From assembly GCF_056712565.1 (NCBI RefSeq), contig NZ_CM160072.1: DNA of 64,000 nucleotides, one strand, 5' to 3'. Of the stretch, positions 15,001-24,000 are shown in pieces (within the stretch, counting starts at the first letter, position 1; each line of letters opens with the position of its first letter). A program made the position numbers.

Positions 15001-18000
15001 TGTTCAGTACGCAGCCGCGAACGCTGTACGATCTGCTCGACGTTCGCGCATTACTGGAGGGCGAATCGGCAAGGCTGGCGGCAACGCTGGGAACCCAGGC
15101 TGATTTTGTTGTGATAACCCGCTGTTATGAAAAAATGCTCGCCGCCAGTGAGAACAACAAAGAGATTTCGCTGATCGAACATGCGCAGTTGGATCACGCT
15201 TTCCATCTCGCCATTTGTCAGGCTTCTCACAATCAGGTGCTGGTGTTTACGCTGCAATCATTGACCGACCTGATGTTTAATTCGGTGTTTGCCAGCGTAA
15301 ATAATCTCTACCATCGACCACAGCAAAAAAAGCAGATCGATCGCCAGCATGCGCGGATCTACAACGCGGTGTTGCAGCGGCTGCCGCACGTTGCCCAGCG
15401 CGCAGCACGCGATCATGTGCGGACCGTGAAAAAGAATCTCCACGATATCGAGCTGGAAGGCCACCATTTGATTCGCTCGGCGGTGCCGCTGGAGATGAAG
15501 CAGGGGTGACTGCCATCAAATCTGCTTTTCATACAATCGGTAACGCTTGTACGGCTCCGCCCCAATGCGTTCCAGCATGTTATTCATGCCTGTATTGGTT
15601 TCGAGGATCCATGACATTTCCAGCGCATCGATCTTCCGGCGGGCAAACGGATCGTGTAAGGCTTCAATCAATAACAGCGCAATCACCGGGCCGATGCGGC
15701 TGAACTGATACTCGTCCCGCACGCCCATCAGCGGCACTCGCGCAGTTCGCACACCGCTGACTTTCAAACGCCACAGCAATTTTGCCCAGCCGAAGGGAAA
15801 GAGCGATCCGTTCAGATCGACAATCGCCTCGTTGATGTTCGGCAAGCCAACAATAAACGCGCAGGGTGCAGAATCAATCTCAGCGATGTAGATCATATCG
15901 TCCGGCACCAGATATTTAAGTTGATCGCCCATGGTCGCGAATTCATGTTCGGTAAACGGCACAAATCCCCAGTTGTGCTGCCAGCCAGAATTGAAAATCT
16001 CACGCAGGATCTGCATATCTTCGGCAAACCGCTGGCGATTGATGCAGCGAATGGTCACTTTTTTGCGCACCTGATCCATCAGTTTTTTTAGCGCCGGAGA
16101 GAAAGTGAGATCGGTTCGCTGCATCCACCACGCCAGTAAATCAATGCCTTTGTGATAACCCAGTTGTTCAATATGCGCGGCATACCACGGTTTGCCGTGT
16201 GGCATCATCGCACAGGGCGGAGTGTCAAAACCTTCAATCAGTAATCCGCTTTCCTGATTGATATTCAGGCTGAAAGGCCCGCTGATCTTACTTGCACCTT
16301 GTGACTTCAACCACGCTTCCGCTGTACCAAACAACGCGGCAAAAACCTGCGGATCATCAATGGAGTCAATCATGCCGAAATGACCGGTATCTTCACCGTA
16401 ACGCTCACGGTGCAAGGTATCGATTTGCGCGGTAATCCGCCCGACTATCTGCCCGGCTTTTTTTGCTACCCACGCCTGCCAGATGATATGGTCCGTCCCC
16501 GGATTCTTCGCAGACAAATGCTCGCTGCGTTCAATGAATAAAGGGGGTATCCAGTTTGGATCATCGGGATAAAGTGATGACGGAAAAGCGATAAATGCCT
16601 TAAGGTCTTTTTTATTAATTACTTTTTCAATTTTAATCATCAGCAGATCGCATTCCATATCTCTGTGGATAACAAATAATTAACGGTGAAAAACAGGTTG
16701 CAACAGCAACGAACGGCATCTTAATAATCAACCCAATGAATACAAACAAAGAATAAATAGTATTTATTAATGATTACGATAAGGTCAAAGACTACACAGA
16801 AGCGCCACAATGCCTCTTGTCGATTTAAGGCGACCGGACAAGGCTCCTTCTTAATATATTCACAAATTAAATATCATTCACAATAAAAACAAAAAAGCCA
16901 AACTTATTATTTAAATCAATGTTCATTTTCACACCGATGAAAATACTATCTCATTTATCTTTTATGCCTATATAATCCACCGCATTATTGTCATTTTATT
17001 TTTGATATCCAATTTTTTCGTGGTGTATATGTCTAATAAAATCTTTACGCATTCCCTACCTATGCGCTATGCCGATTTTCCAACGCTGGTTGATGCTTTG
17101 GACTACGCCGCTCTGAGTAGCGCCGGAATGAATTTTTATGACAGACGTTGCCAACTTGAAGATCAACTGGAATATCAGACGTTAAAAGCGCGTGCCGAAG
17201 CTGGTGCGAAAAGGTTGTTATCGCTGAACCTGAAAAAAGGCGATCGCGTGGCGCTGATTGCCGAAACGAGTAGCGGGTTTGTAGAGGCTTTTTTTGCCTG
17301 CCAGTATGCCGGCTTAGTCGCCGTCCCGTTGGCGATTCCAATGGGCGTAGGTCAGCGGGATTCCTGGAGCGCCAAACTGCAGGGTTTACTGGCAAGTTGC
17401 CAGCCCGCAGCCATTATCACTGGTGATGAGTGGTTGCCACTGGTCAATGCCGCGACGCATAACAACAACCCCGAATTACATGTTTTAAGCCACGCCTGGT
17501 TTAAGGCATTACCGGAAGCCGATGTTGTGCTCCAGCGTCCAGTTCCAAACGATATCGCCTACCTCCAGTACACCTCCGGCAGCACCCGTTTTCCCCGTGG
17601 CGTCATTATCACCCATCACGAAGTGATGGCTAATCTACGTGCTATAAGCCACGATGGGATTAAATTACGCCCTGGCGACCGCTGCGTCTCCTGGCTGCCT
17701 TTCTACCATGATATGGGACTGGTCGGCTTTCTCCTGACCCCCGTCGCCACGCAGCTTTCAGTAGATTATTTGCGCACTCAGGATTTTGCCATGCGTCCTC
17801 TGCAATGGCTTAAATTGATCAGTAAAAATCGTGGCACCGTTTCCGTTGCACCGCCGTTTGGCTATGAATTGTGCCAGCGCCGCGTGAATGAAAAAGATCT
17901 CGCTGAACTGGATCTTTCCTGCTGGCGCGTCGCTGGTATTGGCGCAGAACCCATATCCGCAGAACAACTCCATCAATTCGCTGAATGTTTCCGTCAGGTT

Positions 18001-21000: not shown

Positions 21001-24000
21001 TCCTGCCACCTGCCGCGCCTGCTGGCATCACGCTGCTGCGCTGTAGCGTAAACGCTGCCCACAGTCGTGAGCAAATCGATGCCATCATTCAGGCATTTGC
21101 TACTCAGAAGCAGTAATGTGAACCCGCCGTGGTGTTGCGCCACGGCGGGTTTAATGTTGTCTGTCATACCAATACACCAGGCTCAACGCCACCAGCACAA
21201 ACGCTACCGGTAAACCGAGCGCGGTAACAGGTGCGCTCAACGCAAATAGCAATCCCAGATTGACCATGATTTGATAGCTGATCCAGGTGAGTAAACCAAC
21301 GATGACGCCTACAGCGAGACGGCTACCCATCCCTGGCGAGCGCGGGACACTAAAGGTAAACGGCACAGCCAGCAAAATCATCGCCAGAGTCAAGATCGGT
21401 TGCCCCAGTTTTTCCCACAGTGCAAGGTGGTATTCGCTGCTGGGTTGCCCGGTATCCTGCAAATAATGGATGTAATGATTAAGCTGACGGACAGAAAAAG
21501 TATTCCCCGGCATCGATAACTCTTCAAGATTCATACTGGTGAAGGCCGATTGCCAGGCAAGATTATCTAATGTTTCCAGCGTTTCTTTGCCATTCAACCA
21601 TTTTTTATAATTCACACCATGCAGGATCCACGTTTTATCGTCTTCAATGGTGGCACTGCGCGCATAAATGTAGGATTCGAGCGAGAGATCGTCGCGGTAA
21701 TGAAAAATCTCCACGCCCACCGGCTGGCCCTGCTCGTTCAGCGATTTCACCGTCACAAATTCATTACCGCGCCTGGCCCAAAGCATATTGCCGATAATGT
21801 CATTGTCCTCCCCCAACGCGGTGGCAGTCGATTTGATTTGCAGCGCCTGTTGCTGCAATGGTGACGCCACCCACTCATCAATCGCGCCTAACGAAACAGT
21901 CCACAGTATCCCTGCAACCAGCGCCACCAGTGCAATGCGGAAGATAGAAAACCCCGTGCTGCGAATGGCGGTAAGCTCACTGTTTTTCGATAACTGCCCG
22001 AGACCAACAATCCCCCCCAATAACGCGATAAACGGCGAAAGTTCGACCAGTGTGCGCGGTAAGGTCATCAGCACCACCAGCACTGCCTGAGTCCAGCGAT
22101 AACCGCCCGGACTGACATCATCCAGTTCGTTAATCAGGTTGAAGGTGGTAAAAAGCGGCAGCAATAGCCCTGCGGCGGCGGCAAAACCGAGAAAGAGGTG
22201 ACGGATTAAATAGCGACTGAAAACATTCATCGGGGAAATTTCTGCAGCAAGGAGAAGTCGCGTGCGACCAGCATCAACAGGCCCATTAGCATGAGTCCGG
22301 GCACTAACCACAAACCAGGAATGAGGGGAATCGCGCCGTTAGCCACCAGCGTACGACAGACGTCGCCGCCATAAAAAATGGCAACAAACAGCAACGTCAG
22401 TGGCAGTAGCGTTGAAAATCGCCCCTGCCGCGGTTTTACCCGACTTAATGAAATGGCCAGCAGCGCCATCAACAATGCTGTCAGGCCACGGCTTTGTCGC
22501 CATTGCAGTTCGGCATGATCGGCTGGAAAGACGGAGCGTGCCAGCTCCGTGACCGATTTTGCTTTGCGTTTGACGTTAGGGCTTTGATCCAGCGGATTGA
22601 GATGCAATTGCAGATTACGGTAGATCTGTTCGTTGTCGTCACGCCCCTGATGATCGAGAAGATAGGCGGTACCGTTATGCAACATAACGGTCGGTTTCTC
22701 GGGTGATGGGTCAACCACATCAACCGAACGGGCGCGGAAAATGCGGGTTCGATTGGCAGTAGAAGTATAAATCAGCGCGTCAGTCAGGCGATTATTATCC
22801 TGATCAACCGTCTGCGAAAGGATCATTCGTCCGTTATCGTTAGTGTTAAATTTCTTTGCCCGCAACTGACGAACATCCAGCTCCGACTGCGATTGTTGCT
22901 CCAGTTGATAAATCTGCGCATAAGCCCAGGGACGACCATACATCGACAGAAGGGTGACAAAAATACTTAGCGGTATCGCCAGATAAAGGACGGCTTTGTA
23001 CAAACGTCCCGGACTGCCCCCCGCCGCGGAGATAGCGGTAATTTCCGAGTCGGTATACATTTGCCCTAGCGTCACGCCAACTGACGCATACAGTCCAACA
23101 GGTAACAGCATCTCCAGTGCAATCAGCACTTTGTAGAAAACGATATCCAGCACAACATCAAGAGCTAATGTCCCATTTGCCGCTTCGGTCAGATAACGCT
23201 GTGCGGAGTAGCTGGCGAAAATAAAGATCAGAAAACCGACGATAATCAGCACCAGACGGCGCGTACCACGCATGATGTAGTGTTCAACCAGCTTCATCTC
23301 GCTAACGCCCTCAATCCTTTGAATTTTTTATTCATTGATCAGTTTCTGCGCCAGCGCAATGACATGATCTACCTCTTCCGGTGTCAGGCTGCCGTCCTTT
23401 GCCCACTGAATTCGCCCGGCTTTATTCAATACCAGAATGGTTGAACTCTGCTCCGGCAATTGCCAGGCAACGCGTCCCAGACCATTGCCGTCAATAACGA
23501 ATTGCGCCCACGGATAGCGGCGTTTATTTTTTTCGATTTTGCCAACGACAAAATAGCCAGTACCAAAGATGGCATCATCGGTGTTCACAATAGTGGTGGG
23601 CTGAAAACGATCCTGCGAAAAGTTTGCCGCTTCAACCGCTTTAATTAACAGTGAGTTCTTTTTCTTCGCAGACTTACGTCCGGCGATATACTGAATAATG
23701 CGGACTTTTCCCGTCAATTGTGTGCTGTTCCACTTTTGGTAGTGAATTTCGTCGTCGCTATTCAGAAGCAGCTCGCCGCCTTCCTGGATATAAACAGGAG
23801 TAACCGTTTTGCCAGTGACGAAATTGTGTGCCGCCGCGCCTGGCGCTAAGAGTGCGATGATCAGAGCGACAATCCAACGAGATGGCATTATTGCTCCGGA
23901 TAGAGTGGGAAACGCGAAATAAGCAGTTCTAAACGCTGGCGAATATCGCTATCCAGCGCCACCGGTGCATCATATGACCGACGGTTATCCATATCATCCG

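What the first reader, a model, noticed from the sequence alone, without database searches (positions are those of the whole stretch)
17029..21116. Four-gene lipid-like biosynthesis operon: acyl-AMP ligase, SDR-type reductase, ACP, serine-palmitoyltransferase-like synthase
Four tightly coupled + strand genes (stop/start overlaps ATGA at 18750 and taATG at 19944) encode an adenylate-forming fatty acyl ligase, an NAD(P)-binding epimerase-type reductase, a dedicated acyl carrier protein and a PLP-dependent alpha-oxoamine synthase. In established bacterial sphingolipid pathways (Caulobacter, Bacteroidetes) exactly this enzyme set does acyl activation onto ACP, condensation with an amino acid to a 3-keto long-chain base, and reduction. 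E. coli is not regarded as a sphingolipid producer and, as far as I recall, K-12 lacks this segment (an IS5 copy lies between yghO and yghQ there). This is the strongest candidate in the window for an uncharacterised system producing an amino-lipid or ceramide-like molecule. The product and the amino-acid substrate cannot be read from sequence.
Basis: partly seen in the sequence, partly recalled or inferred. Interest (0 to 1): 0.88.

Follow-up and report, generated by a model that had tools for sequence, protein, structure and literature searches.

The report
Known E. coli sphingolipid (ceramide) gene cluster
The four genes are real and do encode the first steps of sphingolipid synthesis, but this E. 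coli operon is already annotated, partly crystallised and biochemically characterised, so it is not a new system; what E. coli makes with it in nature has not been reported in the literature I could search.

Summary
Four co-directional, tightly packed genes lie at 17029-21116 in a B2/ExPEC-type E. coli chromosome.

The functional reading is right, but the claim that the system is uncharacterised is wrong.
- RefSeq already names the last gene spt (serine palmitoyltransferase).
- It passes NCBI's curated SPT equivalog model (599 bits, cut-off 500). It fails the BioF and KBL cut-offs.
- The ligase is about 98% identical to the crystallised E. coli fatty acyl-AMP ligase (PDB 3PBK).
- The BL21(DE3) orthologues are 95-99% identical to the window proteins. 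Padilla-Gomez et al. 2022 studied them as AasR, AcpR and Spt. The ACP carries 4'-phosphopantetheine. The three together give a product that co-migrates with 3-oxo-sphinganine on TLC. Spt prefers acyl-AcpR.
- That paper also assigns the SDR (epi/CerR-type) and the divergent yghO (N-acyltransferase) to dihydroceramide synthesis.

About 75% of complete E. coli genomes carry spt. K-12 lost 8.4 kb to an IS5 element.

Still open are the native product, its expression and its head group. The flanking genes may bear on this. They are LptF/LptG paralogues, a flippase, three P-loop kinases and a CHAD-like protein, and they travel with spt in distant bacteria.

The parts
15516..16658 (-). yghO, the bCerS/'aca'-type N-acyltransferase candidate, transcribed divergently from the operon
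   Evidence: 380-aa ORF, 97.9% identical to BL21 ECD_02850. No Pfam, NCBIfam or PDB sequence hit. The AF2 model has pLDDT 96.8 and a tandem-GNAT fold (Foldseek PDB E about 1e-15). It is 41-43% identical to the protein at the CC_1154 position in Caulobacter loci. Assigned as aca in PMC9386255.
16659..17028 (.). AT-rich divergent intergenic region, the presumed promoter/regulatory region for yghO and the operon
   Evidence: GC is 0.336 in the 16500-16999 window against about 0.52 around it. Only weak sigma-70-like matches were found, no more than in shuffled sequence. Regulatory function is inferred, not shown.
17029..18753 (+). aasR / EcFAAL: fatty acyl-AMP ligase acting as a dedicated acyl-ACP synthetase
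   Evidence: NF006624 867.9 bits, above the cut-off of 600. About 98% identical over its full length to PDB 3PBK. 97.7% identical to BL21 ECD_02851. Biochemistry in PMC8460268 and PMC9386255.
18750..19664 (+). epi / CerR-type extended SDR (NDUFA9-like keto-reductase candidate)
   Evidence: GATGFIG at residues 9-15 and YANSK at 122-126. Many of the best PDB sequence hits are NDUFA9-type complex I subunits (E 1e-12 to 1e-10). Same position (between aasR and acpR) and 31-33% identity to the Caulobacter locus gene. 95.4% identical to ECD_02852.
19696..19944 (+). acpR: specialised acyl carrier protein
   Evidence: ACP models at E 6e-9, below their cut-offs, so a divergent ACP. Ser39 sits in LGLESI at the position of the canonical DSL serine. 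98.8% identical to ECD_02853, which is labelled by beta-[3H]alanine (PMC9386255).
19944..21116 (+). spt: serine palmitoyltransferase
   Evidence: NF047599 599.5 bits, above the cut-off of 500. bioF 334.5 (cut-off 426) and Kbl 299.8 (cut-off 460) both fail. Best PDB hit is the S. paucimobilis SPT 2JG2 at 377 bits, against KBL 207 and BioF 182. K244, H137, D210, H213 and R366 are conserved. 97.9% identical to ECD_02854.
21119..21153 (.). GC-rich hairpin between the convergent spt and lptG2 genes, a likely bidirectional terminator
   Evidence: 16-pair stem with 10 G-C pairs and a 3-nt loop. It overlaps the lptG2 stop codon. Terminator function is inferred.
21151..23297 (-). lptG2 (21151-22230) and lptF2 (22227-23297): second copies of the LPS-export permeases, candidate sphingolipid extractor
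   Evidence: TIGR04408 298 bits and TIGR04407 318 bits. Syntenic with spt in Enterobacterales, Nitrospira, gamma-proteobacterial MAGs and Caulobacter. CC_1156/CC_1155 are proposed as LptF2/LptG2 in PMC11324152. The role in E. coli is inferred.
23328..24724 (-). YtfJ-family protein (23328-23888) and a 278-aa protein with no sequence family (23888-24724) that has a CHAD-like helical fold
24724..28489 (.). yghQ (MOP-type flippase, 24724-26073, -), yghR (26119-26877, -), yghS (26909-27622, -) and yghT (27797-28489, +): accessory module of a flippase and three paralogous P-loop kinase-like proteins
   Evidence: The dTMP-kinase model gives only 25-33 bits against a cut-off of 83. The same module lies next to spt in several beta- and gamma-proteobacteria. 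Membership in the sphingolipid pathway is inferred from synteny only.

Best explanation
This is the E. coli copy of the proteobacterial ('Rhodobacteria'-type) ceramide synthesis cluster. AasR (EcFAAL) adenylates a free long-chain fatty acid. It cannot use CoA, so it transfers the acyl group to the 4'-phosphopantetheine arm of the dedicated carrier protein AcpR. Spt, a PLP-dependent alpha-oxoamine synthase, condenses acyl-AcpR with L-serine, with loss of CO2, to give 3-oxo-sphinganine. These three steps are shown experimentally for near-identical E. coli orthologues, with the product identified by TLC co-migration. By inference from Caulobacter, the divergently transcribed tandem-GNAT protein YghO N-acylates the long-chain base, and the NDUFA9-like SDR reduces the 3-keto group, giving dihydroceramide. 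The order of these last two steps is debated even in Caulobacter. The neighbouring lptF2-lptG2, yghQ, yghRST and CHAD-like genes are candidates for head-group addition and export to the outer membrane. That part is inference from conserved synteny.
For: ORFs and overlaps. Curated family membership: SPT equivalog 599.5 bits (cut-off 500) and FAAL 867.9 bits (cut-off 600). Nearest solved structures: bacterial SPTs and EcFAAL 3PBK at about 98% identity. RefSeq annotation as spt / fatty acyl-AMP ligase / ACP / epimerase family. 95-99% protein identity to BL21(DE3) ECD_02850-02854. [quoted passage not shown] EcFAAL rejects CoA and loads EcACP (PMC8460268). Gene order aasR-cerR-acpR-spt is identical to Caulobacter CC_1165-CC_1162, with flippase, LptF2/G2 and the YghO homologue nearby. 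YghO has a tandem-GNAT fold, and natural YghO-FAAL and YghO-LptF/G fusions exist. The five-gene core is co-located in 16 of 16 Enterobacterales species other than E. coli in the scan, and in Nitrospira, Geobacter, and beta- and gamma-proteobacteria. dN/dS between this B2 allele and BL21 is 0.07-0.11 for yghO, aasR, cerR and spt, and 0.04-0.13 for the flanking genes. spt is intact in 4092 of 5426 complete E. coli genomes.
Against: No paper in the searchable library reports a sphingolipid made by wild-type E. coli from this locus. The published activities come from over-expression, and products were identified by TLC co-migration. The roles of the SDR and YghO in E. coli are only proposed there ('might'). 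The residue matching S. paucimobilis SPT Arg378 is Leu354 here, and the PATP loop reads PAAP, so fine substrate handling may differ. ACP models score below their curated cut-offs. The upstream region is AT-rich with no convincing sigma-70 promoter, which would fit tight regulation or silencing.
Confidence: 0.88

Rival explanations
1. The enzymes are functional but the locus is cryptic in E. coli: it is transcriptionally silent (for example H-NS-silenced) and contributes no lipid in practice.
For: No native E. coli sphingolipid was found in the searched literature. The 16500-16999 window has GC 0.336 and promoter-like matches do not exceed shuffled sequence. K-12 and about 24% of complete genomes do without spt. 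Published activities are from over-expression.
Against: Strong purifying selection across phylogroups (dN/dS 0.04-0.13). Intact ORFs in about 75% of complete genomes, including the type strain. The whole 12-13-gene locus is conserved at 52-86% protein identity across most sampled Enterobacterales genera. In BL21 over-expressing heterologous parts, compounds migrating like sphinganine and ceramide appeared, attributed to 'intrinsic enzymes' (PMC9386255).
Confidence: 0.25
2. The synthase uses a different amino acid in vivo (glycine, alanine, cysteate), giving a deoxy-sphingoid, sulfonolipid-like or other amino-lipid rather than a serine-derived base.
For: SPTs are known to show relaxed amino-acid specificity (abstract of PMC10196870; PMC9386255 has a section on relaxed specificity of the Rhodobacteria SPTs). 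The SpSPT Arg378 equivalent is Leu and PATP reads PAAP.
Against: SPTEc incorporates L-[14C]serine into a lipid migrating like 3-oxo-sphinganine (PMC9386255). It passes the SPT equivalog cut-off. The cysteate acyltransferase structure scores far lower (203 against 377 bits).
Confidence: 0.05
3. The synthase is a BioF or KBL paralogue, and the operon makes a biotin- or threonine-pathway-related keto-amine.
For: Older database names for identical or similar proteins include '8-amino-7-oxononanoate synthase'. It shares the alpha-oxoamine synthase fold.
Against: bioF 334.5 bits (cut-off 426) and Kbl 299.8 bits (cut-off 460) both fail, while the SPT model passes. PDB: SPT 377 bits against KBL 207 and BioF 182. 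The genomic context and experimental data also argue against it.
Confidence: 0.01

Closest known systems
E. coli BL21(DE3) ECD_02850-ECD_02854 (yghO/aca, aasR, epi, acpR, spt), Padilla-Gomez et al. 2022 (PMC9386255)
   Same: Orthologous locus at the same chromosomal site (glcC-yghO ... yghQRST-pitB), with the same gene order. Protein identities are 97.9, 97.7, 95.4, 98.8 and 97.9%.
   Different: Only allelic differences between a B2 ExPEC-type allele and a B strain, including a one-residue indel in AasR. The annotated aasR start differs: 574 aa here and in 3PBK, 562 aa in the BL21 RefSeq record.
Caulobacter crescentus ceramide cluster CC_1165-CC_1162 plus CC_1154, with CC_1166, CC_1156 and CC_1155 (PMC9386255, PMC11324152, PMC11087976)
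   Same: Identical order aasR-cerR-acpR-spt. A MOP-type flippase, LptF2/LptG2 paralogues and a YghO-family acyltransferase lie nearby. Same proposed chemistry.
   Different: Only 31-56% protein identity. E. coli lacks detectable homologues of the Caulobacter phosphoglycerate head-group genes in the locus. The Caulobacter ceramide kinase CpgB is a DAG-kinase-type GGDG enzyme. E. coli instead has three P-loop kinase-like proteins, a CHAD-like protein and a YtfJ-family protein. No LptC2 was recognised here.
Sphingomonas paucimobilis / S. wittichii serine palmitoyltransferase (PDB 2JG2, 2X8U)
   Same: 47% identity. Best-scoring solved structures (377 bits). PLP lysine, His, Asp, His and the Arg390 equivalent are conserved.
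   Different: The Arg378 equivalent is Leu354 and the PATP loop is PAAP. E. coli Spt matches the 'beta-proteobacterial' NCBIfam equivalog (599 bits, passes) rather than the alpha-proteobacterial one (431 bits, cut-off 670).
EcFAAL, E. coli fatty acyl-AMP ligase, PDB 3PBK (cited as Zhang et al. 2011 in PMC8460268)
   Same: The same protein, about 98% identical over all 574 residues.
   Different: About ten substitutions and one extra Asn (NNNPE against DNPE).
BioF (8-amino-7-oxononanoate synthase) and KBL (2-amino-3-ketobutyrate CoA ligase)
   Same: Same alpha-oxoamine synthase fold and Claisen-type PLP chemistry.
   Different: Below the curated cut-offs of both families, with much weaker PDB scores. 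Different context and demonstrated substrates.

Membership tests
Serine palmitoyltransferase, proteobacterial ('Rhodobacteria') group | Scores above the curated cut-off of an SPT equivalog model and below those of sister alpha-oxoamine synthases | tested here: met
   NF047599 599.5 bits (cut-off 500). bioF 334.5 (426), Kbl 299.8 (460), ALAS 221.6 (338.55) and CqsA-type 224.1 (428) all fail.
Serine palmitoyltransferase, proteobacterial ('Rhodobacteria') group | PLP-binding lysine and the catalytic His/Asp/His/Arg set of SPT | tested here: met
   K244, H137, D210, H213 and R366 align with SpSPT K265, H159, D231, H234 and R390. The SpSPT R378 equivalent is Leu354, so it is not conserved.
Serine palmitoyltransferase, proteobacterial ('Rhodobacteria') group | spt immediately preceded by a dedicated acp gene, with an acyl-ACP synthetase gene nearby | tested here: met
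   acpR ends at 19944, where spt starts. aasR lies two genes upstream. The same arrangement is seen in 70 or more of the 80 loci from other species.
Serine palmitoyltransferase, proteobacterial ('Rhodobacteria') group | Catalyses serine + acyl-thioester to 3-oxo-sphinganine | not testable with these tools
   Reported for the 97.9%-identical BL21 enzyme in PMC9386255, identified by TLC co-migration.
Fatty acyl-AMP ligase / AasR | Passes the FAAL subfamily model and is identical to a structurally defined FAAL | tested here: met
   NF006624 867.9 bits (cut-off 600). 3PBK 1279 bits, about 98% identity.
Fatty acyl-AMP ligase / AasR | Does not make acyl-CoA; acylates its cognate ACP | not testable with these tools
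   Literature for EcFAAL-EcACP (PMC8460268) and AasREc-AcpREc (PMC9386255).
AcpR specialised acyl carrier protein | ACP fold and sequence with a serine at the phosphopantetheine attachment motif | tested here: inconclusive
   ACP models hit at E 6e-9 to 1e-3, but all below their cut-offs (best 35.6 bits against 71). Ser39 is present in LGLESI. 4'-PPT labelling was shown for the 98.8%-identical BL21 protein (PMC9386255).
CerR (bacterial ceramide reductase, NDUFA9-like SDR) | Extended-SDR Rossmann motif and YxxxK, with NDUFA9-like similarity | tested here: met
   GATGFIG 9-15 and YANSK 122-126. NDUFA9-type subunits are among the top PDB hits. The NDUFA9 homology of CerR is stated in PMC11087976.
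CerR (bacterial ceramide reductase, NDUFA9-like SDR) | Positional orthology with Caulobacter CC_1164 (between aasR and acpR) | tested here: met
   31-33% identity over about 285 residues (E 1e-30) at the same position in Caulobacter loci L078 and L080.
CerR (bacterial ceramide reductase, NDUFA9-like SDR) | Reduces 3-oxo-(dihydro)ceramide or 3-oxo-sphinganine | not testable with these tools
bCerS / aca (bacterial ceramide synthase), for YghO | Homologue of the Caulobacter CC_1154-position protein, with an acyl-CoA N-acyltransferase (GNAT) fold | tested here: met
   41-43% identity over residues 3-380 (E 1e-94). Tandem-GNAT fold from a pLDDT 96.8 model. No sequence-family model exists in Pfam or NCBIfam. 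Enzymatic activity is not tested.
BioF / KBL (considered and rejected) | Passes the curated equivalog cut-off | tested here: not met
   334.5 bits (cut-off 426.45) and 299.8 bits (cut-off 460).
dTMP kinase (RefSeq name of yghS and yghT) | Passes the TIGR00041 cut-off | tested here: not met
   25-33 bits against a cut-off of 83.25 for YghR, YghS and YghT. No PDB sequence hit for YghS.

The most novel reading that the evidence does not exclude
Most natural E. coli (but not K-12) make, under conditions not yet identified, an anionic, probably phosphorylated, sphingolipid. The 13-gene yghO-to-yghT locus would build dihydroceramide, decorate it with a head-group module unlike Caulobacter's (three paralogous P-loop kinases YghR/S/T plus a CHAD-like phosphate-polymer-binding protein), flip it (YghQ) and hand it to a dedicated LptF2G2 extractor for delivery to the outer membrane. 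That would give functions to the K-12 orphans yghQ, yghR, yghS and yghT.
Probability: 0.3. Interest if true: 0.65.

Novelty: already known. Interest (0 to 1): 0.15.

Why it matters
As a discovery it does not matter, because the operon is annotated and its first three steps are published. The locus is worth keeping in view for another reason. The textbook strain K-12 lost it to an IS5 deletion, while about three quarters of sequenced E. coli, including ExPEC, APEC and the type strain, keep it under purifying selection. I found no report of the native lipid. A sphingolipid in the outer membrane of a major gut commensal and pathogen would bear on host signalling, on polymyxin and LPS biology, and on the function of several K-12 y-genes.

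Tried and rejected
1. BioF/KBL identity of the synthase was rejected on curated HMM cut-offs and PDB scores.
2. YghR/S/T as homologues of the Caulobacter ceramide kinase CpgB was rejected. 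CpgB is a DAG-kinase-type GGDG enzyme, whereas YghR/S/T are P-loop proteins. They are not dTMP kinases either.
3. Sequence-family searches for YghO and the 278-aa protein (Pfam, NCBIfam, PDB sequences) gave nothing. Structure prediction was needed.
4. The promoter scan found nothing above shuffled background.
5. Six literature searches for a native E. coli or enterobacterial sphingolipid, or for any link between sphingolipids and yghQ/R/S/T, found none.
6. Olea-Ozuna 2021 and Stankeviciute 2022 could not be read because they are not held. Statements about them rest on how PMC9386255, PMC11087976 and PMC11324152 cite them.
7. A first dN/dS for aasR was wrong because of a frame offset around a one-codon indel. 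It was redone on a codon alignment.
8. The other E. coli genome in the genome-contig scan (L005) had an internal stop in the tblastn match to the 278-aa protein, so it was left out of the alignment.

Full report
**What is there.** The window is an E. coli chromosome. Positions 16500-21300 are 100% identical to B2/ExPEC strains such as S88, APEC O1, IHE3034 and NU14.
- 17029-18753, 574 aa
- 18750-19664, 304 aa
- 19696-19944, 82 aa
- 19944-21116, 390 aa

The ATGA overlap at 18750 and the TAATG overlap at 19944 were read directly from the sequence. A 16-bp-stem GC-rich hairpin at 21119-21153 separates spt from a convergent gene. Upstream lies a 370-bp AT-rich gap (GC 0.336 in the 16500-16999 window) that is shared with the divergent gene yghO.

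**What the proteins are.**
- *Ligase.* It passes NCBI's fatty acyl-AMP ligase model (867.9 bits, cut-off 600). It is about 98% identical over its full length to PDB 3PBK, the crystallised E. coli FAAL.
- *Synthase.* It passes the curated serine palmitoyltransferase equivalog NF047599 (599.5 bits, cut-off 500). It fails the BioF, KBL, ALAS and CqsA-type cut-offs.
  - Its best solved relatives are the Sphingomonas SPTs (377 bits), against 207 for KBL and 182 for BioF.
  - The PLP lysine (K244) and H137, D210, H213 and R366 align with the catalytic residues of the S. paucimobilis enzyme.
- *82-aa protein.* It is a divergent ACP with Ser39 in LGLESI.
- *304-aa protein.* It is an extended SDR (GATGFIG, YANSK). 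Many of its best structural relatives by sequence are NDUFA9-type complex I subunits. That is how the Caulobacter ceramide reductase CerR is described (PMC11087976).

**It is already known.** RefSeq annotates the locus as fatty acyl-AMP ligase, NAD-dependent epimerase/dehydratase family protein, acyl carrier protein and 'spt: serine palmitoyltransferase'. Padilla-Gomez et al. 2022 (PMC9386255) studied the E. coli BL21(DE3) genes ECD_02851 (aasR), ECD_02853 (acpR) and ECD_02854 (spt). They report four results:
- AcpREc is labelled by beta-alanine, which indicates a 4'-phosphopantetheine group.
- AasREc works with its own AcpR but not with the Caulobacter one.
- SPTEc incorporates L-[14C]serine and strongly prefers acyl-AcpR over acyl-CoA or acyl-AcpP.

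The same paper assigns ECD_02852 (epi) and yghO/ECD_02850 (aca) to dihydroceramide synthesis. It also notes that the five genes are clustered only in Caulobacter and E. coli BL21 among the genomes compared. I fetched the BL21 locus. The window proteins are 95.4-98.8% identical to the studied ones. Separately, PMC8460268 used EcFAAL (3PBK) with its ACP to show how FAALs reject CoA and load holo-ACP. All three are published.

**Independent checks of the pathway assignment.** I made one scan of one-genome-per-species contigs with an SPT alignment, followed by tblastn of all locus proteins.
- The five-gene core (yghO, aasR, SDR, acpR, spt) is co-located in every sampled Enterobacterales species that carries spt. 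These are Hafnia, Serratia, Citrobacter, Pseudocitrobacter, Shimwellia, Erwinia, Tatumella, Mangrovibacter, Pluralibacter, Cedecea and Rosenbergiella, with spt at 73-86% identity.
- After a jump to 53-60% identity, the core is also co-located in Nitrospira, Geobacter, Methylotenera, Rhodocyclaceae, many gamma-proteobacterial MAGs and Caulobacter.
- In the Caulobacter loci the order is flippase, aasR, SDR, acpR, spt ... lptF2, lptG2, yghO-homologue. This reproduces the published CC_1166 to CC_1154 map.

YghO has no Pfam, NCBIfam or PDB sequence match. It belongs to a large family of 6,487 representative clusters and gives a pLDDT 96.8 model. The model has a tandem-GNAT fold (Foldseek PDB E about 1e-15 to glucosamine N-acetyltransferase, CBG and MshD). 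Natural fusions of this family to a FAAL (P0182) and to an LptF/LptG permease (A0A9E6RH89) exist. All of this supports the published proposal that YghO is the N-acyltransferase. Its activity in E. coli remains untested, as does that of the SDR.

**Distribution and selection.** spt is present at 80% or more coverage in 4092 of 5426 complete E. coli genomes, including the type strain. In MG1655 an IS5 replaces window 16619-25004 (8,386 bp). Between this B2 allele and BL21, dN/dS is 0.07-0.11 for yghO, aasR, the SDR gene and spt, and 0.04-0.13 for the flanking genes. The locus is therefore maintained by selection and is not decaying.

**What is still open.** In six literature searches I found no report of a sphingolipid made by wild-type E. 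coli or another enterobacterium from this locus. I also found no paper linking yghQ/R/S/T to sphingolipids. The flanking genes are suggestive. lptG2-lptF2 pass the LptG and LptF equivalog models, and second LptF/G copies are proposed sphingolipid exporters in Caulobacter (PMC11324152).

The block of yghQ (MOP flippase), a 278-aa protein, and the kinase-like paralogues (yghR, yghS and a third paralogous hit at the yghT position) recurs next to spt in other lineages. In Dyella the whole block, including all three kinase-like genes, directly flanks the spt operon. Parts of it also lie beside spt in Luteibacter, Rhodocyclaceae, Methylotenera and another beta-proteobacterium, with three kinase-like genes confirmed in Methylotenera L045.
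- The kinases are not dTMP kinases despite their RefSeq names (25-33 bits, cut-off 83).
- They are unrelated to the Caulobacter ceramide kinase CpgB, a GGDG DAG-kinase-type enzyme.

A phosphate-rich head group and Lpt-like export would fit these features, but this is inference from synteny and fold only.

**Verdict.** This is a known, annotated and partly crystallised and assayed gene cluster. Interest as a finding is low. The residual interest lies in the native product and in the accessory module.

Noticed in passing
window 21151-23297 (- strand): A second LptG/LptF permease pair sits directly beside spt. Both pass the curated LptG and LptF equivalog models. The pairing is conserved next to spt in Enterobacterales, Nitrospira, gamma-proteobacterial MAGs and Caulobacter. 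No LptB- or LptC-like gene was recognised in the locus.
   Followed up: partly
window 26119-28489 (yghR, yghS on -, yghT on +): Three paralogous P-loop proteins are named 'dTMP kinase' or nucleoside kinase in RefSeq, but they score only 25-33 bits against the dTMP kinase cut-off of 83. The triplet recurs next to spt in Methylotenera (L045) and Dyella (L071), and yghR/yghS-like genes lie near spt in Luteibacter, Rhodocyclaceae and another beta-proteobacterium. They survive in K-12 as orphan y-genes.
   Followed up: partly
[not shown]
   Followed up: partly
L005:13953-14780 (E. coli SCPM-O-B-8794): In this other E. coli genome the tblastn match to the 278-aa protein contains an internal stop codon, so the gene may be a pseudogene in that strain.
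   Followed up: no
window 19944-21116, Spt residues 352-361: The residue aligned with S. paucimobilis SPT Arg378 is Leu354, and the 'PATP' loop reads PAAP. Arg390 (R366 here) is conserved. PAAP is invariant in the enterobacterial sequences aligned.
   Followed up: no
proteins P0182 and AFDB A0A9E6RH89 (not in the window): Natural fusions of the YghO family exist: YghO plus FAAL (940 aa) and YghO plus an LptF/LptG-family permease (752 aa). This is Rosetta-stone support for the functional link between the acyltransferase, the ligase and the Lpt-like exporter.
   Followed up: partly
window 16619-25004 versus MG1655 (L004:8147-9341): The K-12 IS5 (insH9) replaces 8,386 bp. As a result K-12 yghO has a foreign N-terminus and K-12 yghQ lacks its last 94 or so codons. 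Experiments on K-12 'yghO' or 'yghQ' therefore test damaged genes.
   Followed up: yes
window 16659-17028: The intergenic region between yghO and the operon is markedly AT-rich (GC 0.336 in the 16500-16999 window against about 0.52 in flanking windows) and has no convincing sigma-70 promoter. It may be a site of xenogeneic silencing or special regulation.
   Followed up: no
window 23328-23888 (- strand): A YtfJ-family protein (TIGR01626, 214 bits) is embedded in the locus. It was found next to spt only in Enterobacterales, not in the more distant spt loci.
   Followed up: no
window 19696-19944: The dedicated ACP scores below the curated cut-off of every NCBIfam ACP model (best 35.6 bits against 71). 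Its attachment motif is ESI rather than the usual DSL.
   Followed up: no
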